In this document: positions 1,559-63,057 of the stretch, piece after piece | Layout of the letters: the number at the start of each line of letters is the position of its first letter | Numbering within the stretch: position 1 is the stretch's first letter | Source: a virus | Strand: one strand, 5' to 3' | Virus record (IMG/VR): IMGVR_UViG_3300042542_003555 | Span: 1 to 64,000 of that record | Length of the DNA: 64,000 bases | Made by a program: the position numbers and the translations under genes | The notes under the pieces: generated by a model | Seen by the model: the letters and a program-made list of their open reading frames with translations, nothing else | Databases searched by the model: none | What the model was told of the DNA's origin: nothing

Positions 1559-1566
1559 TATTTATA
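1559..1566 (-). promoter_or_regulatory. T4-type late (gp55) promoter
   Basis: TATAAATA upstream of hsp20. Confidence 0.75.
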
Positions 1567-15892: not shown

Positions 15893-15900
15893 TATTTATA
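15893..15900 (-). promoter_or_regulatory. late promoter
   Basis: TATAAATA just upstream of the gp3 SD. Confidence 0.75.
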
Positions 15901-18499: not shown

Positions 18500-18507
18500 T
18501 ATTTATA
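18500..18507 (-). promoter_or_regulatory. late promoter
   Basis: TATAAATA upstream of gp22. Confidence 0.75.
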
Positions 18508-20872: not shown

Positions 20873-20880
20873 TATTTATA
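20873..20880 (-). promoter_or_regulatory. late promoter
   Basis: TATAAATA overlapping the gp20 stop codon. Confidence 0.7.
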
Positions 20881-22612
20881 ATATTCTTGTCAATCTTCTT
20901 ACCATAGAATTTTCAGATAAACTTAAATCGGCAGATGAATTAACTGCTTTAGGTTTTCTCTGTTGTGGCTTTTGTGTATCTATTGCAGAATTCTGTTGTG
21001 GTGCCTGTGAAAGATTTTGCTGCGACATTGTATCTTGTTGCTGTTGCATTTGTTGTTGCTGTGCATCCATTTGGATATCAGTCATCATTTTTTGTTGTGC
21101 AACAGCATTTTGCACTTCAGTAGGCACTTCAAATCCTGCTTTCTTTTCATCATCAATTTCTTTATCAATGAGTTTGATTTCATCATCGTCCATGCGTAGA
21201 ACATTTCTACGTATCCAACCCATCGAATAATATGTTCCGGTATATGGATCAACTTGCTGCAACAGAGTTAATCTATTTGCCATTAGTTCTGCTTCTTTTA
21301 GTTCAGCGAAATTATTATCTTTAATAAAGTCATAGTACATATGTTCTTTGAATTCTGTGAATTCCACATCAGTACATACGCCTTTTAGTACACATTGAAT
21401 TCTCAATGCTTGATCAAATAATTCGGAAAACTTGTTACGTAATCTGTCAATAAATTTTGCAAATTTTAATTCATCTCTAGTAATTTCAGATGAACGACCA
21501 ATAGTAAAACCAGAAGATGATTCTAATCGTGAGATAGGTACGCTTAGTGATTTGTATAGTTTCTTCTCAAAATATTTTACGTCCTCTAATTCACCTAAAT
21601 TTTGACCACCAGGCAATGTGGTAATCTCTGTTCCTTTTCCACCTTCTCTACGTGGTAACCAAAAGTCTTCCATCATTGATAGAAACTTACGATCATCACG
21701 AACTTCACCTGTGTTTGCATCATAAACAAGTTTGTTCTTGTACTTGATCATGATATCACGCAGATATTGTTCTGCTTTGAGTTTTGGTAAGTTACCTACA
21801 TCAATGTAAAAGATTCTACGCTCTGGTGCTCTAGAAATACGGTAGATAACAGTTGCATCTTCAATCATACGCAATTGATTAAGAGGCTTGATTGCTTTAT
21901 GTAAATATGAGAGAACAACTGCTCTACGAGAATCCATCAGACCAGAATTGATATTAATGATGGAGTCTTTTGTAATTCTTGTGCCTACTGGTCCATAGCT
22001 TGACTGTGTACCAGTAATTGCCTTGTCATTATAAATGTAATACTCATTAATTGTTGCCATTATTTCTACGCCAGTTCTTTCGTCTTTCTTTTTTCTCAAT
22101 TCACGAACTTTGCGTATTTTTCTTGGATCAACATAGCGTAATTCTTTAATACCCGCAATTGGATTTTCTCTATCAATAATAATATGATAGAACAATCTAC
22201 CATCAATGTAATATCTTCTAAAGATATCTTGAGCCATATTATTATAATTCAACAGTCTCAGGACAGTTGAGAATTCATCTTGAATTGCTTTTTTGATTTT
22301 GTCTGGCTGCTTTAAGTCATCCATAATCAATTTGACGTTTTTACCATCGTCATCTTGTACAATGGCTTCATTGATAATATCATCAATAGCAGATTCAATT
22401 TCCGGCTGCATAGCCATCTCTCTATATCGAGAGATTAGTTCTACTTCATTTTTTGCAGTACCATCAAGGTCAACATATGTACCATAATAGGCCGCAGAAG
22501 TAATCGTTAGTGCGCCGTCATCACTGCTTGGTGGAGCAAATGATTGTTGCACTAACGAATCTTCTTCAGCCTTTTGCCTCGATATCGTAAAGCCAAATAA
22601 ATTTAAAGCCAA
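20876..22612 (-). CDS. gp20: portal protein gp20
   Basis: YLHKAIKPLNQLRMIEDA.VIYR.SRAPERRIFYIDVGNLP, EDFWLPRREGG.GTEI.TLPG; TTG start after AAGGAG. Confidence 0.98.
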   Translation of the reverse strand: MALNLFGFTISRQKAEEDSLVQQSFAPPSSDDGALTITSAAYYGTYVDLDGTAKNEVELISRYREMAMQPEIESAIDDIINEAIVQDDDGKNVKLIMDDLKQPDKIKKAIQDEFSTVLRLLNYNNMAQDIFRRYYIDGRLFYHIIIDRENPIAGIKELRYVDPRKIRKVRELRKKKDERTGVEIMATINEYYIYNDKAITGTQSSYGPVGTRITKDSIININSGLMDSRRAVVLSYLHKAIKPLNQLRMIEDATVIYRISRAPERRIFYIDVGNLPKLKAEQYLRDIMIKYKNKLVYDANTGEVRDDRKFLSMMEDFWLPRREGGKGTEITTLPGGQNLGELEDVKYFEKKLYKSLSVPISRLESSSGFTIGRSSEITRDELKFAKFIDRLRNKFSELFDQALRIQCVLKGVCTDVEFTEFKEHMYYDFIKDNNFAELKEAELMANRLTLLQQVDPYTGTYYSMGWIRRNVLRMDDDEIKLIDKEIDDEKKAGFEVPTEVQNAVAQQKMMTDIQMDAQQQQMQQQQDTMSQQNLSQAPQQNSAIDTQKPQQRKPKAVNSSADLSLSENSMVRRLTRIL

Positions 22613-45901: not shown

Positions 45902-48094
45902 TTAGATTCCTGTTCCTGATGGTAATGCTAACGCACGTAGGTCTGACAGATATGGTACTTTTGGACTATCATCTGATGCAAACACTACCTTGATAGCAAA
46001 TTGACTGAATTGTGTATAAGTTTTACCGTTTGTACTTTCATATGAAATAAAGTTATCTGCTACATTGTTTGTTCCTGGAGCAAATTCATATTCAATTAGG
46101 TTGTCTTTGGCTAATGAGTACACATTAGGATTACCAACTTGCGTCATCAGTTGCCAATAACCATCTTCAAACGGTTGTGTATCATCTCGGTTCAGAATCT
46201 TATAGTATACATAAATTCCTGTACCTAATGGTTTGTATGCTGTACAGAATACTCTCAAGTCGCCCGAATCGTTTCCTTGTGTCAATACAACTTTCTTAGT
46301 GAAATATCTTGCGAATGAGTTTCCACCACTACTTGAAGTTTCACCGTATACAACAACATTTGCTGGACTTGTGTTAGCACCTGTAATTGTAATGGTTGGT
46401 GTAGTGATATATCCTGATCCTTCATTGATCACATATACTGAAGAAATAACATCTGATGTTCCATTATTTGCAACTGTAAATCCTAAAGTTGCAGGATCGG
46501 AACCAATGTCTGGAGCACTAATAACGATTGATGTGTTTGCTGGGTCTGTGTATCCTGAACCTGTATTTGCTACGGAGATCACATTGTTTGATATACCCAT
46601 ATTGTTAATGATATTCTGCACACTATACACAGTAACACCATCATCTGAGATGATTGGGCTAACATTTGGATCGGTAGATGATAATGTTGCATACATTGAG
46701 AATGTATCATTGATTGTTTTAATCAATGCTCTTTGTCCTCTACCATCATCAAATGTAATATCATCTTGTGTTGGTGATCCTAGTTTACCGGGAGTTGCAG
46801 AGAATGGACCAATAGGAACATTTCCTTCAGCAAGAACCGCAGTATATGAATAATTAATATTTGTGCTAGTTGGTACAAAGTCTGTCGTTGTTAAGTTGAC
46901 AGCATCAGACCAGGTAGTTGTTCCAAAACTACCAAATAAGTTTGTCATATTGTTGGCATCAAGCTTATATTGAATATCTTGACTGCCAAGTTTTCTATAA
47001 GGTAATCCTTTTGGAATAGAAAACTGAATTGCTGGTGTGACAGAAGTATTGAATATGCACCTATCGATAACAAACATTAATTGCTTAGACTGATCTACTT
47101 GCCATGTGATAGAGTTTTGCGATTCAAACAAACCACCAACATATGGTGTCTGACCAATTTTTGATGTTTCGGTTGGGTTAGGATCAGTAGGCAGTGCTTT
47201 TGCTGTAGAAGGAACTGCTGTAGAATTCTGTTGAGCATAATATATGGTATAGTCAGCACTACTTGTTTCTAACATAAATGCATACAGAACATCGCCTTGA
47301 ATATAAACAGGAGCTTTAAATACAAACTCTGTATATGTCGATGCATCCAAATAATGAGGATTTTGTGATGTTACAACTTGATTTGCATTTAGTGTCACTG
47401 ATGAATAGTCTAATCTTTGCCCGTTTGGATATCCATTTAGTGTGCCAACGATTGATAATGTAACTGGAACATTAGTCGTTGGCTTAGAACGGAAAAACAC
47501 CTTTACTGAACGAAGAAAAATTCCATTAGGAAAGTTGCTCTTATTAACAATAAACGTTTGAGCAATAGGATCACGATAAGTAACAGTTTGTACAACTCTT
47601 GTTCTTACTAGCTGATTTTCTCTTTGAGATACTTGTACAAATGCACTTGCGGCTGAGTCAACAGATGGCGCAAACTCAAGTTTCTGTGATGTTGTTGCAA
47701 GACCTGATGCAGTGAAAGTTGCTTCAGCAAATGTAGTTGCTGTAGTGGGATCAGAAGAAACTAATCTATTGTCAACTCTAAAAACTCTATTTCCTGTTTG
47801 AAATATGCCGCCAGGAAGATTGAATATACCAACAAAATTTCCAGCTTCATCAGTTGAAAATTTAGATAGTGTATTTCCTTTTTGTATAGCATCAGCAATG
47901 GTTGTAATTTGATTACCATTGAAGTTATATTGTGATGTCACATCTCCAACTTTTGTATTATATCCTAATGATACATTAATAGGAGTATCAAGAGTTACAA
48001 TTTTGTTGATATGATCATATGCTGTAACAGTTGCAACATCAGTTGACGTTGATCCTATATACTCTGTTGGTTCTACTTTATATACGTAAGGCAT
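45902..48094 (-). CDS. VrlC/DUF4815-like virion structural protein, C-terminal half
   Basis: DPIAQTF, GIFL.SV..FF..K, G.LF.SQN..TW, SPII, F.QFAIKVV, P...DLRA.AL. Confidence 0.8.
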   Translation of the reverse strand: MPYVYKVEPTEYIGSTSTDVATVTAYDHINKIVTLDTPINVSLGYNTKVGDVTSQYNFNGNQITTIADAIQKGNTLSKFSTDEAGNFVGIFNLPGGIFQTGNRVFRVDNRLVSSDPTTATTFAEATFTASGLATTSQKLEFAPSVDSAASAFVQVSQRENQLVRTRVVQTVTYRDPIAQTFIVNKSNFPNGIFLRSVKVFFRSKPTTNVPVTLSIVGTLNGYPNGQRLDYSSVTLNANQVVTSQNPHYLDASTYTEFVFKAPVYIQGDVLYAFMLETSSADYTIYYAQQNSTAVPSTAKALPTDPNPTETSKIGQTPYVGGLFESQNSITWQVDQSKQLMFVIDRCIFNTSVTPAIQFSIPKGLPYRKLGSQDIQYKLDANNMTNLFGSFGTTTWSDAVNLTTTDFVPTSTNINYSYTAVLAEGNVPIGPFSATPGKLGSPTQDDITFDDGRGQRALIKTINDTFSMYATLSSTDPNVSPIISDDGVTVYSVQNIINNMGISNNVISVANTGSGYTDPANTSIVISAPDIGSDPATLGFTVANNGTSDVISSVYVINEGSGYITTPTITITGANTSPANVVVYGETSSSGGNSFARYFTKKVVLTQGNDSGDLRVFCTAYKPLGTGIYVYYKILNRDDTQPFEDGYWQLMTQVGNPNVYSLAKDNLIEYEFAPGTNNVADNFISYESTNGKTYTQFSQFAIKVVFASDDSPKVPYLSDLRALALPSGTGI

Positions 48095-48117
48095 TTATTT
48101 TTCCAATAAAATAATAG

Positions 48118-51100
48118 TTATTTATTGTTAACAATACAAGCTAACTTTCCAAAAATCTTAAATAGTAGCATTACAGATTTTTGAGTGAACTTGCTTTCAT
48201 CATCTTTGAATGCTTTGATTAGAATCAAATTAACTAGCTTATTATCTAACTTACCAAAATAGTTGTTTAGTAGATAAGCACCATACACAGTATTCTTTCC
48301 AGCTTCTGTGAATTTAATCAGCAAATCGGATGCTCTTTCAGACGTTATGTATTCTCTCTCGGCCACTTTACGAAGAACACCACCTTCTCCTATAATGGAT
48401 GTTGTACCATACCCATTAACTTGATATGTACCATCTCCATCTACCCATAGATTGTATACGGGTTTGCCTTCTGCTGGAACAACATTGAATGGTTTGATTT
48501 GTTTTGTTCTACCTAACCAAGGATACGCTTCATAAATTTCATCCGAAATAGGACTACACAATTCACCATCAATATATAATGGGTGATTGATTGTTGCAAA
48601 TGGTTTCTCATCTTCTTTTACTGAATATAGTTGTTCAAATTTCGTATCAAGTGTTTTTTCAACGAAAGTAACTGTATTAACTTCTCTTTTCTTCCAATTG
48701 TATACTTTATCACCAACTTGAACTTCACTAATTTTCTTAGTTGAACCATCTGCAAGAAGCACTAAACTATCCTCAGTAAAACATCTTCCTCGGCGGCGTG
48801 GTGGTGGAGGAGGAACATATGTTGCTGTTTGAACTGTGTATGCAAATATGTATGTCGATGTAACACTAAGTTTCGTTCCTACATAATAGTTTGCAACATT
48901 AGATGCATTACCATCTAGTTTAACTTTTGTTACTCCAGTGAACCATGCTCCACCTTCAGGCATAACAACAACCTGAGCAACACTATCATAGTTTGTGTTT
49001 GGTGGACTTGTTGATTCAAATACAATTTCATCTGCGGCATTCTTAATAACAACAGCAATACCAGAAGGACCAGGAGATCCAGTTACAGACCAAGCAAGTG
49101 TTTTTGTTCCTAATGATGCTACGTTAAGGCTTGCTTGATTAACTGTTGTTGGGTTTGCAGCACCAGAAATGATTGTACTTCCATTTGATGTTAAGGTGTA
49201 CGCTCCAGATGACGAAACTTGAACTGTATATGTACCAGTATCTTCTGGAGTGATAGCAAAGGTTGCTGAGTATGATGCTGATGCATTTAAATCACCCCAA
49301 ATACCATATTGATTCAAGAACGTTCCCCATGCATGAGAGTTTTGAACTTTATAGAGTTGTAATCCACCAGTTATGGAGTTATTATAACTTCCACCAACAC
49401 CACTGAGCGTTCCTGATGTGGATAGTTTAGCAGTTGCCGCAGCAGTATTTAATGTTCCGCTTGCTGTTGATGATGTATATGTTCCACCAGAATTAAATAA
49501 CGCATTCTGGAAAGTGTTTGTTGGAACATATGATGGAGCACCTTGCAGCGTTGAAAGATATAATCTTACATTACTTGTGTTTGGATATTTGTATATCGAA
49601 ACAACACGTCCTGTTGCATTAAATGCGTTATTGTAATAGAATCCAACAATATCATCTTCATTAAATGTACCAGTTACACCAGTTAGTTCTAGTGTGTTTG
49701 GTGAAGTGAGATAATTATCAACACTAACTCCATCAAACCATGCAGAAACTGGAGTGTTAACTAATAATCCTTCTGCTCTGAATATTAACTGTTGTGGTCT
49801 AATATATGGTAAAACAGAGATATTTGTAATATAACCATTACCTAATCCAACAGTAGATGATACTTGTTGATAGTTACCAGCAGTAGTTATGGTTTGTAGT
49901 TGATCTTGGTATGATCGAGTTGTCGTTGTTGTAGTAACTGCTCTACCAGATGAAGATGTTGATGTTGAAACTATATCATATGATGTTCCAGGAATAGTTG
50001 TCCAATCACCAGCGTTTACAACATTGACTCCGTTTGTTTGTTGATATACTTCAGTACCTGGATTTACAATCAGCAACGAAGGTGCTTGACTATTGTCTAC
50101 CCAGTTATCCATAGGTGGAGTAATTCTCGCAACGCCTTGATATACAGCAACATTAAATGGATTCAGACTGATAGTTGAACTAGCAAGCGACTGAATAACC
50201 ACATTTGATGATGTATATGGTAGAGTAAAAATATTAGTTGATGTACCACCAATACTTGAAACCGCAATGTTGTTGAATGTTCGAAGTGTTCCCAGTGAAT
50301 TTAGAACAATTGGGTTTTGCAGTTGATAGTTATCAACAGTATTGATAGGACTTAATCTTCTTTTAGTCGTATTAATCTTTGCTGCGTAGTCAGGATTTGC
50401 TGTATCAGCAGCAGAGAAAGAAGAAAAATCATCTACCAAAATACCATTTTTAAATCTATTCAGTCCATTTACATCTGGCACTTGTAATGATTGTGCATTT
50501 GTTTCCAGTAAACTTAGAGAGGCATAGTATTCTAGATCGTTAACTCTTGTTTGCAGATCAGTGATATCTTTTTTGATCCAGTTCTTATTTAATACCTTTT
50601 CGATGGATAGGTTTGCTTGACCACCACCTGGTACCTCACCTGGAATATATGCTGTATATGGATCATAAGATAGATTTGCTAATACTAATGACCCATCTGG
50701 TTCTTTTGGTAACGTTGGGAATATAGATGGAGTTCCTTGTACCATCAAGAATGCTCTATCTTTTGTTAGAACAAGTTTATCTTTTCTTCCCAGATAATAA
50801 TCATAATCACTGACATATTCGCTTAGGTTTTCTGGAATTAAAATACCTGTATCATCTGCTGCTGGGTTACCGGTATAGTTGAATTCAAATGCTGCTTGTG
50901 CATTTTTTCTCACAGGTCTGAAATCAAGTGCATCGGCAAGACGATATACTGTTCCGTTTGTGCTGATATATGTAGAAATTTCTTGATATACTTCAGGTGA
51001 AGATGAGTTTGGTGCAAGGTATGAATTTACATCAAAGTATCCATCACCACCAGTATGTGAATAGTAATCAAATACAACTAGAATATTGCCTTTTGGTTTA

Positions 51101-53535
51101 TTTGCACCAGCAACAAGAACTAAAGATGCATGATCATAATAGTTATCTCTTTGCCCATTATCTAATCTAAACAGACTAGTAACATCATAAGCAGCATTAG
51201 ATAGCATTGCACTTGTTGCTGCTGTGCCTGGAGATTTTGTATCAATGATCTTTCTAATTTTCTTCACATCAGAAACATATAGTGAAGTGATTGATCCAAT
51301 ATCAGCATTTTGAATGTAGGCTTGACCTTTATTTAAATCAAGATATGTGTTATTGATTACGCCACTAGGACCAGCAATACTTGCAGATGTTGTGTTTCCT
51401 GTTACAAGATTTTTTGTTTTTAATATATTGGTTACATTGTCCGCATTTGAAACATTAACTGCTGCTATTACATCAACAACAATACCACCATAAGTGTCTG
51501 TTGTGAAGGTTACTGTCTTTTTGTCGCCAGAAAGAACTACAGTCTCACCAGATGATGTGAAGTCTAATATCTTTCCAGTCGCTCTATTAATGATTGTAAA
51601 GTTTTGTTTAACGGCATCTGAAGATAATGTTCCAGTACCCAAGAATGTCAGAGGAGTGCCAGCACCAATAGTGATGGTCAAAACGTAATTTGGTCCAGAA
51701 GAAGTAAATGTTTTTGCACGGAATACTTTAGTTGAAACATAATCACTGTTGCTGATATTTGCAACAAATGGATATCCAACTAAGAATAACATTTCTGGTG
51801 CATTTGGATTTTCAAGAATAGTGTCACCAGAAGCTACACCATTGAGTTTTCCTGCATTAGCAATATCTGCTGTAGCAATGATTACATTACTACTGTTTCT
51901 TGCAACAATAGAGTCAACAATTGTAGTCGAGAATTTCAAACTGAATTGTGTTGTGCTATCTGGTGTAACTGTAAATGGTGCATCAACTGTTGCTGTTCTG
52001 GTTGCTCCATTATATGAAACAATTCTTCTAATATCACCCACACTTGTTCCACCCGTGATAACAATAGTTGTAGAATAGTATGCATTTGCGGCAGTTGAGA
52101 ATTTACCACCAGCACCAGTGCCTGAGAAAGTAATTGTCGTTGGTGTTCCTGATGATGCTATTCCATTTAATGCATTTGTATTGATATCAGAAACATATGC
52201 CTTGTAGACATATGATGGAGTATTAGCATTTGATGTTGAACTTGAATACTTTAAGTTTCTTATACGTGCTGAACCAACTAATGTTGAGGCATATGTGGCT
52301 GTATTAGTCGTTAAAACATCAACGTTAGGAGTACAATGCAGATCAATGACTGGCATTGTAGTAACATCAAATGTTCCGTTTGCTGATGTTACTGTGAAAT
52401 AGCTGCCATAGTCAACAAATACAGCATTATTATTGATTGCATCTGTTGTTCTTGCTCTATTGATGCCACCCAATACTTCATCGGATTGATTTTCGATTCT
52501 ATAACCACGAACGTAAGCAAGTCCTTTACCAATCTTCAAATCATATTGTGCTGAATTCACTGTGTTTGCAGATGGTGTTAGCTTAAATTCATCAACAATA
52601 TAGTCACCATTGCTTTCGAAATCTCTCTTTGCAAAGTAATCATCGATAACAGAATAAACACTGTTATCTACTTGTTTGATAATAGTTCCATTACTTACTC
52701 TTACAAGTTCAATAAACTGATCATCATTTCCTGGTGTTAGTGGTAATGAAATAAGATCAAGACCAATCTTGAATCTATCAGCACCAGGTGCTTGATAGTT
52801 AGATGCACCAACAGCAGGATCTAATAATGAAGGATCGTTAACATAGTCAACAATTGTTTCCGTGATAGAAAGACCAACACGATATGATGGTGTATTGCTA
52901 TACTTGTCCAGAACAATAGTTTGTGGTGAAACTTGTACAAAATGTCCAATTGAATACTTGCTAAATGTTCCATCAGGATTCGGTGTTGATGAAATATTAT
53001 ATCCATTTACAATATAAAAAATACCTTGAGAAATGGATGCAGTAGATGTTTTTCCGGTGCAAGTGCTGAAGCCAGTAGAACCAATTGTTGTTGCTGTAAA
53101 GTTTGATCCATCAGTACAGAAGATTTGCATATTGTCTGTGAACTGAACACCAGAGTAATATGAAACATATAACGTAGGTGGATCTGCTTGTGAAGCTTCT
53201 GTCGTTGCAATTACTTTTGCTCTTACGATTCCTTCAGCATCTTGAATATCTTTGTTTAGAAAATTTTCAGCTATAACTTCTGTGCCAATTAGTGTTGTAA
53301 GATTTAACTTTACGTAATAGTTATTAAGGTTAGTTGTTACTTTACCACCAGAAACTGGAGAGTTCTGTGTGAAAATATGATCAGCAAAATTACTGATCTG
53401 ATTTTGTAGAATCGTTTGAGCCTGTGTTAATTCTCTCGCCTGAACCGCAAATCCTGGCTTAAATAGTATTCTATGAAAATTCTTTGTTGGGTCAAAATCA
53501 TCAAAATACGGATCAACGTTAAAATTTAGAGCCAT
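48118..53535 (-). CDS. VrlC/DUF4815-like virion structural protein, N-terminal half, with C-terminal Hint domain
   Basis: FNVDPYFDDFD..KNFHRILF.PG.AVQARELTQ.Q, APGADR, LEYY.SLSLLE, RFKNGILVDDF; Hint domain near the C-terminus. Confidence 0.85.
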   Translation of the reverse strand: MALNFNVDPYFDDFDPTKNFHRILFKPGFAVQARELTQAQTILQNQISNFADHIFTQNSPVSGGKVTTNLNNYYVKLNLTTLIGTEVIAENFLNKDIQDAEGIVRAKVIATTEASQADPPTLYVSYYSGVQFTDNMQIFCTDGSNFTATTIGSTGFSTCTGKTSTASISQGIFYIVNGYNISSTPNPDGTFSKYSIGHFVQVSPQTIVLDKYSNTPSYRVGLSITETIVDYVNDPSLLDPAVGASNYQAPGADRFKIGLDLISLPLTPGNDDQFIELVRVSNGTIIKQVDNSVYSVIDDYFAKRDFESNGDYIVDEFKLTPSANTVNSAQYDLKIGKGLAYVRGYRIENQSDEVLGGINRARTTDAINNNAVFVDYGSYFTVTSANGTFDVTTMPVIDLHCTPNVDVLTTNTATYASTLVGSARIRNLKYSSSTSNANTPSYVYKAYVSDINTNALNGIASSGTPTTITFSGTGAGGKFSTAANAYYSTTIVITGGTSVGDIRRIVSYNGATRTATVDAPFTVTPDSTTQFSLKFSTTIVDSIVARNSSNVIIATADIANAGKLNGVASGDTILENPNAPEMLFLVGYPFVANISNSDYVSTKVFRAKTFTSSGPNYVLTITIGAGTPLTFLGTGTLSSDAVKQNFTIINRATGKILDFTSSGETVVLSGDKKTVTFTTDTYGGIVVDVIAAVNVSNADNVTNILKTKNLVTGNTTSASIAGPSGVINNTYLDLNKGQAYIQNADIGSITSLYVSDVKKIRKIIDTKSPGTAATSAMLSNAAYDVTSLFRLDNGQRDNYYDHASLVLVAGANKPKGNILVVFDYYSHTGGDGYFDVNSYLAPNSSSPEVYQEISTYISTNGTVYRLADALDFRPVRKNAQAAFEFNYTGNPAADDTGILIPENLSEYVSDYDYYLGRKDKLVLTKDRAFLMVQGTPSIFPTLPKEPDGSLVLANLSYDPYTAYIPGEVPGGGQANLSIEKVLNKNWIKKDITDLQTRVNDLEYYASLSLLETNAQSLQVPDVNGLNRFKNGILVDDFSSFSAADTANPDYAAKINTTKRRLSPINTVDNYQLQNPIVLNSLGTLRTFNNIAVSSIGGTSTNIFTLPYTSSNVVIQSLASSTISLNPFNVAVYQGVARITPPMDNWVDNSQAPSLLIVNPGTEVYQQTNGVNVVNAGDWTTIPGTSYDIVSTSTSSSGRAVTTTTTTRSYQDQLQTITTAGNYQQVSSTVGLGNGYITNISVLPYIRPQQLIFRAEGLLVNTPVSAWFDGVSVDNYLTSPNTLELTGVTGTFNEDDIVGFYYNNAFNATGRVVSIYKYPNTSNVRLYLSTLQGAPSYVPTNTFQNALFNSGGTYTSSTASGTLNTAAATAKLSTSGTLSGVGGSYNNSITGGLQLYKVQNSHAWGTFLNQYGIWGDLNASASYSATFAITPEDTGTYTVQVSSSGAYTLTSNGSTIISGAANPTTVNQASLNVASLGTKTLAWSVTGSPGPSGIAVVIKNAADEIVFESTSPPNTNYDSVAQVVVMPEGGAWFTGVTKVKLDGNASNVANYYVGTKLSVTSTYIFAYTVQTATYVPPPPPRRRGRCFTEDSLVLLADGSTKKISEVQVGDKVYNWKKREVNTVTFVEKTLDTKFEQLYSVKEDEKPFATINHPLYIDGELCSPISDEIYEAYPWLGRTKQIKPFNVVPAEGKPVYNLWVDGDGTYQVNGYGTTSIIGEGGVLRKVAEREYITSERASDLLIKFTEAGKNTVYGAYLLNNYFGKLDNKLVNLILIKAFKDDESKFTQKSVMLLFKIFGKLACIVNNK
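48119..48125 (-). promoter_or_regulatory. late-promoter-like ATAAATA overlapping the stop codon
   Basis: ATAAATA at the stop of 48118..53535, about 25 nt before the next ATG. Confidence 0.45.
48397..48783 (-). other. Hint (Hedgehog/intein-like) autoprocessing domain, non-splicing type
   Basis: Block A CFTEDSLVLLADG...I.EV.VGD.V, block B FATINHP, block F VYNLWVDG; block G GTYQVNGYGTTS lacks the terminal His-Asn. Confidence 0.85.
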
Positions 53536-54937: not shown

Positions 54938-56839
54938 TTAAGCGTTTTGAACTGATACGAATGTGTTTGCTAAGTCACCATCAATACTAAAGTACCTCAA
55001 GTATGCAGAACTAGTTGCTGACATATTAAATGTTGTAGAATTGATAGTAGAATTTAGTGCTGTACAACCATGAGTAACTGTTCTCTGATTACCGCTAGTA
55101 TTGGTTAACCAAACTTCAACTACTTTACCATAAACAAAATTTGAAAGTGTGATAGTTAAATCCGCAACCAATTCTGCTTTAATCAATGATGTTGTTGAAA
55201 AATCAATTGTAAAGGCTGTCTGAGCACCCTGTAAAACTGTTGGTGTATAAATGAATCCTTTTTCTGGACCAACAGTACCAGTAAAATAAACAGAATCAGC
55301 ATTAAATGAAGCAATTTCATTAACAACATTTGAACCTGTTGGTGTATTCCAAAATCTTATTCTGGATCCACGATTTGTATCCGAATGATTTTCAGTAGCA
55401 ACAAAATCAATTCTTGCATCACCAAATGGTGCATATCCTGTAGTACCATAAGAGTTACCAGCAATACGCAACAGAATATCATTGTTCTGTGTTGGTGTTG
55501 GCGCACTTACTGTACCTCTGGCTGCTCTACCGGCAATGACAGGGTATGCTGTATTTGAAGTACCAAAAGAATCAATCAACACTCTAGCAGGTGTATTTGC
55601 TTTACTGGTCAATTGCATCAATGTACCAGCCTGTGTAGGAGTTTGTGAACTTCCTGCTGCTGTGATGGTAAAGGCGGCTTCTGTTGCACTAAAGTTGCTG
55701 TTTGCAAGAACCATGGTGCTGTTGACAGTTACAGCACCCGTCATGTAGGTGTTTGCAATCATTGACACATTGCCCGTAAGTGTTGAAGTACCACTTACAA
55801 TTAGATTACCTGTTGTGATGGGACCTGTAGAACTTGTTGTTCCTAGAACTGTAACATTTCCTGTTATATTTAAACTTCCATCAAATGTTCCTGATGTGTT
55901 TGCTAATGCATTGTTTGCTTTAGTGAATGCCGCTTGCGTAAAAGTATTTACTGAAGCAATATTGGTATTCTGAAGATCATTAATTGTTTGTAGGTATACA
56001 GTATTACTTGATGCATTATTAGCTTGAGCATAAGCAGCAGTTGCTAAGGCTACACCAGCATTTGCTGAAGTCCAGCCACTATTGGCTGTAAATGAAGCCA
56101 TTGAAGCATAGGTATTAACTGAACTGATATTTGTGTTCTGAGTGACATTAATTTGTCCTTCTGCATTCGCTTTACCATATGCAGCTAAAGCTAATGTGTT
56201 AATTGCTACTGTATTTGCACCCGCTGTGTTTGCGGCAGCAAAGGAACCTTGTGAATAATCCGCTGCTACTGCTGCGGTGTTCTGAGATGTTCCATCTGCA
56301 AAGATGATAGGTTTTTTAGTTAATCTAAATCCCGTATTATCAATCATTCTGGCAACAACATTTGCTTGTTCATAGCCACCAAGAACAAACTCAATTTGTT
56401 TACCTGATGTAATTGAACCAAGCATCAAGTTACCGCCAGGGTTACTTGTTCCACCACCTGCAACAATCAAATATCCATCCAATGGACTTATATTGTAATT
56501 GGAGTTATTAATACCCAAATCAACATAGTAAGTTGTATCTGTTCCTGTGTCGGCAGTTGCAACATAATCTGCCGATCCATTTGCTACACTATTTAACAGA
56601 TTAACTTGCAAATATGCTTCAGAATCTCCAGCAAACTGTGCAACCACATTAGGAAAAACAACAGGATTATCTCCAACATTCAACACGTTATTAGCATATA
56701 ATCTCTCAGCTAATTGTGTTGCGGTAAATTTACCTGTTATTCCTGTGGGAATATCAACACCAAGAAAGAGACTGTTTGATGTATTTGCATTCAGTCCTCC
56801 TGGAATATTTGGTAATTGTGAAATTTTTACTGTTGACAT
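54938..56839 (-). CDS. baseplate-attached fibre-like protein
   Basis: N-terminal VKISQLP, A..AY..AN coils, beta-rich C-terminus; between gp7 and gp8. Confidence 0.65.
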   Translation of the reverse strand: MSTVKISQLPNIPGGLNANTSNSLFLGVDIPTGITGKFTATQLAERLYANNVLNVGDNPVVFPNVVAQFAGDSEAYLQVNLLNSVANGSADYVATADTGTDTTYYVDLGINNSNYNISPLDGYLIVAGGGTSNPGGNLMLGSITSGKQIEFVLGGYEQANVVARMIDNTGFRLTKKPIIFADGTSQNTAAVAADYSQGSFAAANTAGANTVAINTLALAAYGKANAEGQINVTQNTNISSVNTYASMASFTANSGWTSANAGVALATAAYAQANNASSNTVYLQTINDLQNTNIASVNTFTQAAFTKANNALANTSGTFDGSLNITGNVTVLGTTSSTGPITTGNLIVSGTSTLTGNVSMIANTYMTGAVTVNSTMVLANSNFSATEAAFTITAAGSSQTPTQAGTLMQLTSKANTPARVLIDSFGTSNTAYPVIAGRAARGTVSAPTPTQNNDILLRIAGNSYGTTGYAPFGDARIDFVATENHSDTNRGSRIRFWNTPTGSNVVNEIASFNADSVYFTGTVGPEKGFIYTPTVLQGAQTAFTIDFSTTSLIKAELVADLTITLSNFVYGKVVEVWLTNTSGNQRTVTHGCTALNSTINSTTFNMSATSSAYLRYFSIDGDLANTFVSVQNA

Positions 56840-62172: not shown

Positions 62173-63057
62173 TTATGTTGCTATTTTAGACTTTAAGTAG
62201 TCGGTTCCTACTAAATTATTAATTAGATAGTTTTGTGTATTGCTTATATTTGAAAATCTACTTAAAAATGCGTAATCTCTGTTTACTTGTATGGTAGCTT
62301 GATAAAACGTCCAATCATCATCAATTCTGCGATATACTTGATTATAAAGTCCTCTAAATGAGACATTCATTGTTTGCATTTGAGATGCAGACAGTGTGCA
62401 AGTATTTGACCATCCTAATATAGGAGAATACACTCTTGTTGTATTTGTATTGATTAAGTTTGTATAATAATTAAATGTAGTCACATTTCCTGAAAGTTCG
62501 TCGCCAATAAACAAACTAGTCATTGCACCTAGACCACCAATGGCATTAGCAATACCATTAGTCTTATTTAACATGAAAGTATTCTCATTACCATATGTCA
62601 TAACAGAATCAAAAGTTGGGGATAATTCAGTTGCAGTATTTGCAGAGACACCCGAAACATTGTTTGTATGAGAAATAAAGTTACTCAATAACAAAGTCAC
62701 CGCTACTATATTATTTGCATTTGACAGATATGAAATATTGTTTCCATCAGCACCAAGAATTGAATTCACTACATCCTGTGCACCAGATGAAGTAAAGGTT
62801 ACATTAATCATGGTACTACCAAATGAGTTAATAGTGCTTATTAAATTGCTAGTTACGTTTTTTACAGGATTTTTATAATATGTTGACCTACTAATTGGTC
62901 CGTTTTGCAAATCTGTTTTTTGCCAAGAACTAAATGTGATACTGTTTGAACTCGCATTTAGCATGTTCTTTGCATCGTCACTTATGTTAATTGCATCGCC
63001 AAATTTACTCGAATCAAACGTATATTCATATCTCTCAAAGACACTATTTGCTGACAT
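62173..63057 (-). CDS. hypothetical baseplate-region protein
   Basis: 294-aa Asn/Ser/Thr-rich ORF between gp5 and gp25. Confidence 0.7.
   Translation of the reverse strand: MSANSVFERYEYTFDSSKFGDAINISDDAKNMLNASSNSITFSSWQKTDLQNGPISRSTYYKNPVKNVTSNLISTINSFGSTMINVTFTSSGAQDVVNSILGADGNNISYLSNANNIVAVTLLLSNFISHTNNVSGVSANTATELSPTFDSVMTYGNENTFMLNKTNGIANAIGGLGAMTSLFIGDELSGNVTTFNYYTNLINTNTTRVYSPILGWSNTCTLSASQMQTMNVSFRGLYNQVYRRIDDDWTFYQATIQVNRDYAFLSRFSNISNTQNYLINNLVGTDYLKSKIAT

What the first reader, a model, noticed from the sequence alone, without database searches (positions are those of the whole stretch)
45902..53535. Giant virion protein split mid-domain, with a Hedgehog-like Hint autoprocessing module at the break
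Seen: the VrlC/DUF4815-like protein is encoded as two genes 23 nt apart. Chain A ends ...ASNVANYYVGTKLSVTS-TYIFAYTVQTATYV-PPPPPRRRGR|CF(Hint). Chain B starts MPYVYKVEPTEYIGSTSTD-VATVTAYDHINKIVTLDTP. An intact copy of the same small beta-domain occurs earlier in chain A (FSTAANAYYSTTIVITG-GTSVGD-IRRIVSYNGATRTATVDAP). So the break falls in a loop of one domain, whose halves would have to reassemble, and two extra beta-like strands replace the loop. The Hint domain (48397-48783) has Cys1 and TxxH but ends GTYQVNGYGTTS with no His-Asn, and 92 amphipathic residues follow. Established: Hint without a terminal Asn plus a C-terminal acceptor-binding region is the Hedgehog Hog layout, which forms a thioester and transfers the N-terminal protein to a nucleophile instead of splicing. 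Inference: the virion displays a hairpin stalk whose PPPPPRRRGR tip is autocatalytically coupled to a lipid or small molecule, a host-surface group, or chain B's N-terminus. Chain B has its own GGA SD and an ATAAATA, which suggests an evolved split and not an error.
Basis: partly seen in the sequence, partly recalled or inferred. Interest (0 to 1): 0.9.

Follow-up and report, generated by a model that had tools for sequence, protein, structure and literature searches.

The report
Hint cap on split baseplate protein
A T4-like phage encodes its giant VrlC baseplate protein as two genes cut inside one small domain, and the first piece ends in a Hedgehog-like self-cutting module that is one of several interchangeable end-caps related phages use at this same break.

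Summary
Chain A (48118-53535, minus strand, 1805 aa) and chain B (45902-48094, 730 aa) are the two parts of one VrlC/DUF4815 baseplate protein, 23 nt apart. Unsplit relatives of about 2300 aa are continuous across the break. They show that the cut lies at the tip of a variable beta-hairpin inside one small domain.

Chain A ends in a Pro/Arg stalk, a complete Hint fold and a 92-aa helical bundle. The Hint has Cys1 and Thr-x-x-His but no terminal His-Asn. This 221-aa module is a large, apparently undescribed, almost purely phage-borne family. In 103 of 103 full-length representatives it lies at the very C-terminus, and its catalytic residues are 99-100% conserved. It is not an intein or a split intein.

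The break does not depend on the Hint. Among the 120 closest chain-A relatives, 30 carry Hint+tail. The rest carry other caps (xIIC helical, CFI-box-like, DUF4214-type, short Trp-rich ends) or are unsplit. Caps have been swapped at least 27 times on the backbone tree.

The most likely mechanism is thioester-mediated self-removal of the cap. Hedgehog-like transfer to an acceptor is not excluded. This scan met the same module earlier on other DNA and reached a similar verdict.

The parts
48853..53535 (-). Chain A, VrlC body (residues 1-1561): DUF4815 N-terminal region, inserted domains, and at 48856-48933 the first half of the small beta-domain that is cut
   Evidence: Pfam DUF4815 E 1.3e-57. 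phrog_358 positions 5-1285. Alignment with five close relatives.
51976..52101 (-). Intact internal copy of the same small beta-domain (chain A residues about 479-520)
   Evidence: Local alignment to the joined halves scores 53, z 4.7, 0 of 2000 shuffles.
48814..48855 (-). Outgoing strand of the two-chain beta-hairpin (chain A residues 1561-1574)
   Evidence: It corresponds to the first strand of the continuous hairpin in unsplit relatives such as P0168 and P0153. Conserved in the close relatives.
48784..48813 (-). Pro5-Arg3-Gly-Arg stalk/linker (residues 1575-1584); the scissile bond is Arg1584|Cys1585
   Evidence: Poly-Pro followed by a Gly- or Arg-rich linker precedes Cys1 in most family members and precedes the other cap types too.
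48397..48783 (-). Hint domain (residues 1585-1713) with Cys1585, Thr1648, His1651 and Asp1701; no terminal His-Asn
   Evidence: AF2 pLDDT 93.7. VIA-align Z 14.9 to Tetrahymena BIL2 and 11.3 to Hedgehog 1at0. Cys1 and His are 100% and Thr 99% conserved in 104 modules.
48121..48396 (-). Conserved helical tail (residues 1714-1805): five helices modelled in one confident unit with the Hint; stop codon at 48118-48120
   Evidence: Helices 135-218 of the module; pTM 0.87 for the whole module. Gly168 is 99% conserved. No family or fold match.
48095..48117 (-). 23-nt spacer with a GGA-type ribosome-binding site for chain B
   Evidence: The GGA-rich site a few bases before the ATG is conserved in five sequences and also in relatives with other caps.
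48038..48094 (-). Chain B residues 1-19: return strand of the hairpin
   Evidence: It aligns to the second strand of the continuous hairpin of unsplit relatives. More than 100 stand-alone chain-B clusters begin inside this strand.
45902..48037 (-). Rest of chain B: second half of the small domain (residues about 20-60), then the VrlC C-terminal domains
   Evidence: phrog_358 from position 1313. tblastn to VrlC-like proteins in 950 phage records.

Best explanation
The phage makes its VrlC baseplate protein as two chains. They assemble non-covalently, completing one small beta-domain and a two-stranded hairpin whose tip carries a Pro/Arg stalk.

Chain A is made as a precursor whose stalk ends in a 221-aa cap of Hint plus helical bundle. 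Cys1585, helped by Thr1648 and His1651, turns the Arg1584-Cys1585 peptide bond into a thioester. Without a terminal Asn and a +1 nucleophile no splicing can follow. The thioester is resolved by water or a small thiol, the roughly 25-kDa cap leaves, and mature chain A ends at the stalk tip.

The cap is one of at least five interchangeable C-terminal caps at this break. It probably acts before or during baseplate assembly, keeping the unpaired half-domain and stalk soluble or placed, and not in rejoining the chains.

Shown: the anatomy, the fold, the family, residue conservation, the split inside a domain, and cap exchange. Inferred: cleavage, its timing, and the role of the cap.
For: Split and mid-domain position. 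Single-group origin of the sampled Hint-type split forms, nested among 59 unsplit forms: (SH-like support 86).

Complete Hint fold within chain A.

Catalytic set under strong selection (Cys1 100%, Thr 99%, His 100%, block-F Asp 100% of 104 modules from clusters at 50% identity).

The module always ends the protein. In 103 of 103 full-length representatives it stops 0-47 aa (median 6) before the C-terminus, in hosts of 258-2784 aa. In all IMG/VR loci whose reading frame is complete at its 3' end, the stop follows within 45 residues of the matched module.

Flexible Pro/Gly linkers precede Cys1, as expected for a cleavable appendage.

BIL domains, the closest relatives by sequence (2lwy, E 2e-4) and by fold, are known self-cleavers (my knowledge: Amitai 2003, Dassa 2004).

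Relatives split at the same place without any Hint show that the chains can do without ligation.

Co-fold of the chain A end with the chain B start: weak support only. ipSAE 0.47 (runs 0.52, 0.47, 0.42), best control 0.00. The mark was reached by 58 of 80 solved complexes and 2 of 110 mismatched pairs, but scores of 0.60 or less by only 7 of those 80 and by both mismatches. Runs agree in at least 38% of contacts; partner pLDDT at least 33.
Against: There is no experimental or proteomic evidence of cleavage.

Simple hydrolysis does not explain why a 92-aa tail always accompanies the Hint, with a 99%-conserved Gly and a Tyr-Gly-x-Tyr-x-x-Asn motif.

The other caps at the same site often end in a membrane-like helix or a Trp-rich peptide. 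That hints at a function of the stalk tip itself rather than of a disposable cap.

In other hosts of the module a transmembrane-like stretch sits directly before Cys1, which a pure folding-aid model does not predict.
Confidence: 0.5

Rival explanations
1. Hedgehog-like transfer. The helical tail binds a specific nucleophile: a lipid, a sugar, or a Lys or N-terminus of a neighbouring protein. The Hint thioester passes the stalk tip of chain A onto it, leaving a covalent adduct or cross-link on the baseplate.
For: The architecture matches Hog: Hint without Asn plus a conserved C-terminal region, always terminal. The tail is modelled in one confident unit with the Hint (pTM 0.87).

The best structural match, Tetrahymena BIL2 (Z 14.9), conjugates its upstream domain to Lys side chains (PMC8616854).

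Alternative caps and other hosts have membrane-like or Trp-rich ends next to the same stalk, so a hydrophobic adduct would be a functional equivalent.

In the assembled hairpin the N-terminus of chain B would lie near the thioester (inference).
Against: No acceptor is identified. The tail is not membrane-like (median best 19-aa hydropathy 1.07; 9% at 1.6 or above). It has no match to any family or fold.

Chain-B N-termini at the different split sites share no motif and no conserved Cys, Ser, Thr or Lys.

The invariant Glu42 also aligns with a Glu of an ordinary BIL domain, so it is not a Hog-specific base. Relatives manage without any Hint.
Confidence: 0.22
2. Retained display domain. The Hint+tail is not removed during assembly. 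It sits on the stalk at the baseplate periphery, either as an inert decoration or as a latent thioester that reacts only on contact with the host.
For: The site is a hot spot for variable inserts and caps, as host-facing parts are. VrlC lies next to the host-recognition gene cluster in pelagimyophages (PMC7029224). In this window tail-fibre-like genes lie just downstream of chain B.
Against: The 99-100% conservation of the catalytic residues argues for chemistry rather than an inert domain. Hint thioesters are generally short-lived (my knowledge). There is no evidence either way from virions.
Confidence: 0.12
3. Selfish or neutral cassette. An intein-derived element (linker, Hint, tail, stop, restart) spreads by recombination into tolerant loops of virion genes. 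It persists only because self-cleavage makes it harmless.
For: The same module sits at several different positions of VrlC, in a gp5-like hub protein, in a collagen-like fibre and in unknown small proteins. The Hint label changes at least 6-7 times on the backbone tree. Tandem arrays of up to seven Hint stretches occur.
Against: No homing endonuclease or other mobility gene is present. The tail is conserved although self-cleavage alone should not need it. Within the close clade the module diverges roughly with its flanks (module 78, 53, 52, 47% against flank 76, 54, 55, 64%). Non-Hint caps occupy the same site.
Confidence: 0.12
4. Split intein, assembly error or pseudogene. The two genes are rejoined by trans-splicing, or the stop is an artefact.
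For: Only the superficial likeness to 'fractured genes' with split inteins (PMC2677866).
Against: The whole Hint fold lies in chain A. Chain B begins with VrlC's own hairpin strand, not a C-intein. There is no His-Asn and no +1 nucleophile. The stop and restart are conserved in independent contigs and in more than 100 chain-B clusters. The stop of A and the start of B are in different frames.
Confidence: 0.02

Closest known systems
Hedgehog C-terminal autoprocessing (Hog) domain: Hint plus sterol/adduct-recognition region
   Same: Cys1 and Thr-x-x-His. No terminal Asn. A conserved region of 60-90 aa follows the Hint and ends the protein. Same fold (1at0: Z 11.3, rmsd 2.6, 111 aligned).
   Different: Pfam Hint PF01079 matches only profile positions 9-58 of 213 and stays below its cut-off (24.8 against 29.7 bits). 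The tail shows no likeness to the sterol-recognition region. The host is a phage virion protein. No acceptor is known.
Bacterial intein-like (BIL) domains: Clostridium thermocellum BIL (2lwy) and Tetrahymena BUBL BIL2 (6tmm)
   Same: Closest by sequence (2lwy, E 2e-4, module residues 2-123) and by fold (6tmm, Z 14.9). They sit in variable surface proteins and are not associated with homing endonucleases. They act by cleavage or conjugation rather than canonical splicing.
   Different: The A-type BILs known to me end in His-Asn and lie inside proteins. This module lacks His-Asn, always carries the helical tail and is always terminal. Hint_2 (PF13403, the B-type-like family) is hit weakly by only 4 of 27 members.
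Inteins and split inteins, including 'fractured genes' (PMC2677866)
   Same: Same fold and N-terminal chemistry. The module lies exactly where an intein would lie, between two halves of a host protein that is continuous in relatives.
   Different: There is no C-terminal splice junction, no C-intein on chain B and no endonuclease. A stop codon and a restart take the place of the C-terminal junction.
Self-cleaving C-terminal intramolecular chaperone domains of phage tail spikes and fibres (my knowledge; a Peptidase_S74 domain is seen in genes near related loci)
   Same: A C-terminal appendage of a phage tail protein that is thought to help assembly and then cut itself off.
   Different: Unrelated fold and chemistry (Ser-Lys dyad against a Cys thioester).
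CFI-box-CTERM domain (NCBIfam NF041770)
   Same: It occupies the same place (after the Pro/Gly stalk of chain A) in relatives and also begins with Cys after a Gly run (P0357: 61.3 bits, cut-off 40).
   Different: A different, short helical/hydrophobic domain. No homology to the Hint tail (hhalign probability about 1%).

Membership tests
Hint (Hedgehog/intein) fold superfamily | N-terminal Cys/Ser nucleophile and block B Thr-x-x-His | tested here: met
   Cys1585, Thr1648 and His1651. Conserved 100%, 99% and 100% in 104 modules.
Hint (Hedgehog/intein) fold superfamily | Horseshoe beta fold | tested here: met
   AF2 pLDDT 93.7. Z 14.9 to BIL2, 12.5 to the gp41-1 intein, 11.3 to Hedgehog. Foldseek E 2e-7.
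Intein | Internal position with both exteins in one reading frame | tested here: not met
   The module ends the protein in 103 of 103 representatives and in every IMG/VR locus whose frame is complete at the 3' end.
Intein | C-terminal His-Asn (or Gln/Asp) followed by a +1 Cys/Ser/Thr | tested here: not met
   The last Hint strand carries no His-Asn, and the helical tail follows it.
Split intein | C-intein fragment at the start of the downstream chain | tested here: not met
   Chain B residues 1-19 align with the hairpin strand of unsplit VrlC. Chain B has no Pfam match at E up to 0.1. The full fold is in chain A.
Hedgehog Hog domain | Hint without terminal Asn followed by a C-terminal acceptor-recognition region that ends the protein | tested here: met
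   Met for the architecture only.
Hedgehog Hog domain | Sequence membership (Pfam PF01079 over its length, including the C-terminal part) | tested here: not met
   24.8 bits against a cut-off of 29.7. Only profile positions 9-58 of 213 match. 19 of 27 members match, none better than E 1.2e-5.
Hedgehog Hog domain | Transfer of the upstream protein to a bound nucleophile | not testable with these tools
   Needs expression and mass spectrometry.
BIL domain, A-type | Hint ending in His-Asn without a +1 nucleophile | tested here: not met
   This module has no His-Asn. Upstream tandem Hints in L021 and L027-L029 do end in His-Asn-Lys.
Hint_2 (PF13403, B-type-like BIL) | Match to the family model | tested here: inconclusive
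   No match for the window's module. 4 of 27 members match at E 0.002 or weaker. Bacterial Hint_2 clusters align structurally over residues 1-180 (TM 0.55-0.56).
VrlC / DUF4815 baseplate protein (phrog_358) | Match over the family profile | tested here: met
   Chain A covers profile positions 5-1285 (E 2e-234) and chain B starts at 1313 (E 2e-87). Pfam DUF4815 E 1.3e-57.

The most novel reading that the evidence does not exclude
The Hint+tail module is a phage counterpart of Hedgehog autoprocessing. The helical tail holds an acceptor (a membrane lipid, a cell-surface group or a neighbouring baseplate protein), and the thioester fixes the tip of the VrlC stalk covalently to it. The other caps at this site (membrane-like helices, Trp-rich ends, CFI-box signals) would then be non-covalent or enzyme-dependent ways to the same end: anchoring the stalk tip.
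Probability: 0.15. Interest if true: 0.9.

Novelty: new variant of a known kind. Interest (0 to 1): 0.6.

Why it matters
This would be the first well-defined, abundant Hog-like layout (Hint without Asn plus an obligatory C-terminal partner domain) outside eukaryotes. The family has 139 clusters at E below 1e-30 and is almost confined to phages. That bears on where Hedgehog-type autoprocessing came from, and it offers a compact natural self-cleaving tag.

The finding also shows a giant baseplate protein that tolerates being cut inside a domain. The break serves as a socket where at least five kinds of C-terminal cap are exchanged between close relatives. That points to an unrecognised functional site on the baseplates of abundant aquatic T4-like phages. 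The cleavage chemistry can be tested directly with a short recombinant construct.

Tried and rejected
GenBank/INPHARED phages: no DNA match to the locus and no tblastn match to the module, so no cultured phage with it was found.

Conservation across independent contigs was used instead.

Tail alone: the protein-atlas feature search gave only unnamed viral clusters and chance-level rows. There was no Pfam or NCBIfam family. Helical matches to NEL-type effector domains at Z 4.3-5.2 are below what helical bundles reach by chance.

Idea that invariant Glu42 equals Hedgehog Asp46: dropped, because it aligns with a Glu in an ordinary BIL domain.

Idea that the tail is homologous to the xIIC or CCVVAT caps: hhalign probability about 1%.

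xIIC cap: AF2 gives an all-helical model (pLDDT 79.5), and Foldseek against the PDB gives nothing below E 1.

Late promoter before chain B: there is no exact TATAAATA there. The window has four against 7.1 expected by chance.

Read-through or frameshift fusion of A and B: the frames differ, and a fused Hint could not splice anyway.

Bacterial genomes: only 2 loci, both in MAGs, among 185,579 species genomes, so a cellular origin is not supported.
Full report
SETTING. The window belongs to a 160,983-bp virus record that is about 96% complete. All large genes lie on the minus strand. The genes around the finding match baseplate wedge subunits upstream and tail-fibre proteins downstream. A paper on related pelagimyophages describes VrlC as the protein that takes the place of T4 gp7 in the baseplate (PMC7029224).

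THE OBSERVATION. Chain A is 48118-53535 (1805 aa) and chain B is 45902-48094 (730 aa), both on the minus strand and 23 nt apart.
- PHROG family phrog_358 (2056 profile positions) is covered at 5-1285 by chain A and from 1313 by chain B. Pfam finds DUF4815 at the start of chain A. The two genes together are therefore one VrlC.
- From Cys1585 on, three Pfam Hint families match the first 50-80 residues, all below their cut-offs.
- Thr1648-x-x-His1651 is present, there is no terminal His-Asn, and 92 residues follow the Hint.

IS THE CUT REALLY INSIDE A DOMAIN? A search for longer relatives of the first 200 residues of chain B found 59 unsplit VrlC proteins of 2033-2666 aa. They are up to 61% identical and carry no Hint annotation.
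- The end of chain A and the start of chain B align to adjoining, partly overlapping positions of these proteins.
- Printed out, the unsplit proteins that could be located by motif show a continuous small domain. A beta-hairpin of variable length sits exactly at our break. It is very short in P0187, a clean two-strand hairpin in P0168, and has a Gly-rich insert at the tip in P0153.
- In our phage the outgoing strand is the last part of chain A before the Pro5-Arg3-Gly-Arg stalk. The return strand is the first 19 residues of chain B.
- The joined halves also align with the intact copy of the same domain earlier in chain A (score 53, z 4.7, 0 of 2000 shuffles).
- A co-fold of chain A 1205-1584 with chain B 1-175 gave only weak support. 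ipSAE was 0.47 against a best control of 0.00. The mark was reached by 58 of 80 solved complexes and 2 of 110 mismatched pairs, but scores of 0.60 or less by only 7 of the 80 and by both mismatches. Runs agree in at least 38% of contacts, and partner pLDDT is at least 33.
- The case for a split domain therefore rests on homology, which is clear.
- On a FastTree tree of chain-B parts, the window and its four Hint-type split relatives with a readable chain B form one group (SH-like support 86). That group is nested among the 59 unsplit forms.
- The stop, the gap of 21-25 nt and a GGA-type ribosome site are conserved.

THE MODULE. IMG/VR holds 37 loci with relatives of the last 221 residues.
- In every locus whose reading frame is complete at its 3' end, the reading frame stops within 45 residues of the matched module. 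In most loci with sequence downstream another gene follows closely.
- An alignment of 27 modules has invariant Cys1, Phe2, Thr64, His67 and a strongly conserved block-F strand. It has no His-Asn.
- With that alignment AlphaFold2 gives a confident single unit (pLDDT 93.7, pTM 0.87): a Hint beta-fold at residues 1-128 and five helices at 135-218.
- The Hint part is closest to Tetrahymena BIL2 (Z 14.9), inteins, the C. thermocellum BIL (Z 12.1) and Hedgehog (Z 11.3). By sequence the best solved relative is the C. thermocellum BIL (E 2e-4).
- The tail matches nothing.
- A profile search of 1.84 billion representative proteins found 4121 hits at E up to 0.001 and 139 at E up to 1e-30.
- Among the listed proteins, 103 carry the whole module. 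In all of them it ends 0-47 residues (median 6) before the C-terminus, in proteins of 258-2784 aa.
- Over 104 modules Cys1, His67, Trp89 and Asp117 are 100% conserved, and Thr64 and Gly168 are 99% conserved.
- Only two loci, both in MAGs, turned up in 185,579 species genomes, and none in GenBank phage genomes.
- This is a large, phage-borne, terminal module with a live catalytic centre. It fails the defining tests of inteins and split inteins. It shares the Hog layout but not Hog sequence membership.

HOSTS OF THE MODULE.
- In VrlC the module sits at several different positions of the family profile (ours at 1285/1313, others at about 1101, 1121 and 1423). Where the next gene is recognisable it is the remainder of VrlC.
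- The module also ends a gp5-like hub fragment (L031), a collagen-like fibre fragment (L021) and small unknown proteins.
- Some proteins have two or more Hints in tandem before it, and those upstream Hints end in His-Asn-Lys.
- Before Cys1 there is either a Pro/Gly linker or, in another set of hosts, a transmembrane-like Ala/Val/Ile stretch.

THE BREAK DOES NOT NEED THE HINT. An earlier follow-up in this scan, on another genome, reported that relatives are split the same way without the module. I tested that here.
- At least 128 clusters of stand-alone chain-B proteins exist. Nearly all of the 120 listed begin inside the return strand.
- Three upstream genes were read. One has Hint+tail. One ends shortly after the Pro stalk in a Trp-rich peptide. 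One continues after a Gly run into a 170-aa helical cap that begins with an xIIC motif and ends in a membrane-like helix. All three have the same restart signal.
- The best 120 relatives of chain A 1205-1584 were sorted as follows:

| Cap after the stalk | Number |
|---|---|
| Hint+tail | 30 |
| xIIC cap | 34 |
| CCVVAT cap (weakly CFI-box-like) | 25-26 |
| True CFI-box-CTERM domain (61.3 bits, cut-off 40) | 1 |
| DUF4214-type end | about 6-7 |
| Short aromatic/acidic end | 9-13 |
| Unsplit | 8 |

- On a tree of the backbone region the cap type needs at least 27 changes, against 5 at the least possible and 63.9 when labels are shuffled. Sister pairs with different caps lie at branch lengths of 0.05-0.07.
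- The Hint tail is not homologous to the other caps and is not membrane-like, whereas many xIIC caps are.

MECHANISM. What can be said with confidence is this.
- The chemistry for an N-to-S acyl shift at Arg1584-Cys1585 is present and under selection.
- The chemistry for C-terminal cleavage or splicing is absent.
- The chains do not need to be rejoined.

The simplest outcome is self-removal of the cap by hydrolysis or thiolysis of the thioester. This leaves the stalk tip free. The cap would serve earlier, for instance as a solubilising or positioning aid for the unpaired half-domain. I give this about 0.5.

The obligatory, conserved tail and the membrane-flavoured alternatives at the same site keep a Hedgehog- or BIL2-like transfer to an acceptor alive, at about 0.2. 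BIL2 is a precedent for conjugation to Lys (PMC8616854). Retention of the cap on the virion, and a merely selfish cassette, are less likely rivals. A split intein or an artefact is excluded.

NOVELTY. I found no paper on this module, or on Hint domains in VrlC, in five full-text searches. The tail has no family in Pfam, NCBIfam or PHROGs. The scan had met the module once before on other DNA and reached a like verdict. New here are the proof that the cut lies inside a domain, from unsplit relatives, and the census showing the break as a socket for interchangeable caps.

Noticed in passing
L027:2039-7429 (also L028, L029, L021; proteins P0003, P0004): Tandem arrays of Hint domains before the terminal Hint+tail. 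L027 has three in a row, and the first two end in His-Asn-Lys (A-type BIL style). P0003 shows seven matched stretches.
   Followed up: partly
Proteins P0016, P0021, P0032, P0061, P0067, P0079; L007:813-1937: In a subset of hosts a transmembrane-like Ala/Val/Ile-rich stretch lies directly before Cys1 of the module, instead of a Pro/Gly linker.
   Followed up: no
L042:671-5953; proteins P0354-P0448: Alternative caps at the same VrlC break. One is a 140-185-aa all-helical 'xIIC' cap with a membrane-like last helix (AF2 pLDDT 79.5, no PDB match). Another is a roughly 120-aa 'CCVVAT' cap weakly like CFI-box-CTERM. P0357 has a true CFI-box-CTERM. There are also DUF4214-type ends. Nearly all begin with Cys soon after a Gly run.
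   Followed up: partly
L041:1119-5963: A chain-A relative ends a few residues after the Pro stalk in an acidic, Trp-rich peptide (four Trp in a row). At least nine clusters have such short aromatic ends.
   Followed up: no
L031:7191-8693: A gp5-like baseplate hub OB-domain fragment (270 aa) carries the same Pro/Gly linker and Hint+tail module, so the module also caps a fragment of the central spike protein.
   Followed up: no
L015:7518-8660: A small host protein has a run of alternating Cys-Asn repeats just before Cys1 of the module. Several VrlC hosts have Cys-Gly-Cys-Gly there.
   Followed up: no
Proteins P0153, P0156, P0157, P0161: The unsplit clade nearest to the split forms has a 35-50-aa Gly-rich insert at the hairpin tip, where the split forms have the stop and restart. 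It could be a precursor or a scar of the break.
   Followed up: no
window 54938-56839 (-) and 62173-63057 (-): Two genes inside the baseplate cluster (633 aa and 294 aa) have no PHROG match at E 1e-5 or better.
   Followed up: no
window 1559-1566, 15893-15900, 18500-18507, 20873-20880 (-): The four exact T4-late-promoter-like TATAAATA sites in the window all lie on the gene strand. Three are just upstream of ORF starts and the fourth is inside the 20876-22612 ORF. Their number (4) is below the chance expectation (7.1).
   Followed up: no
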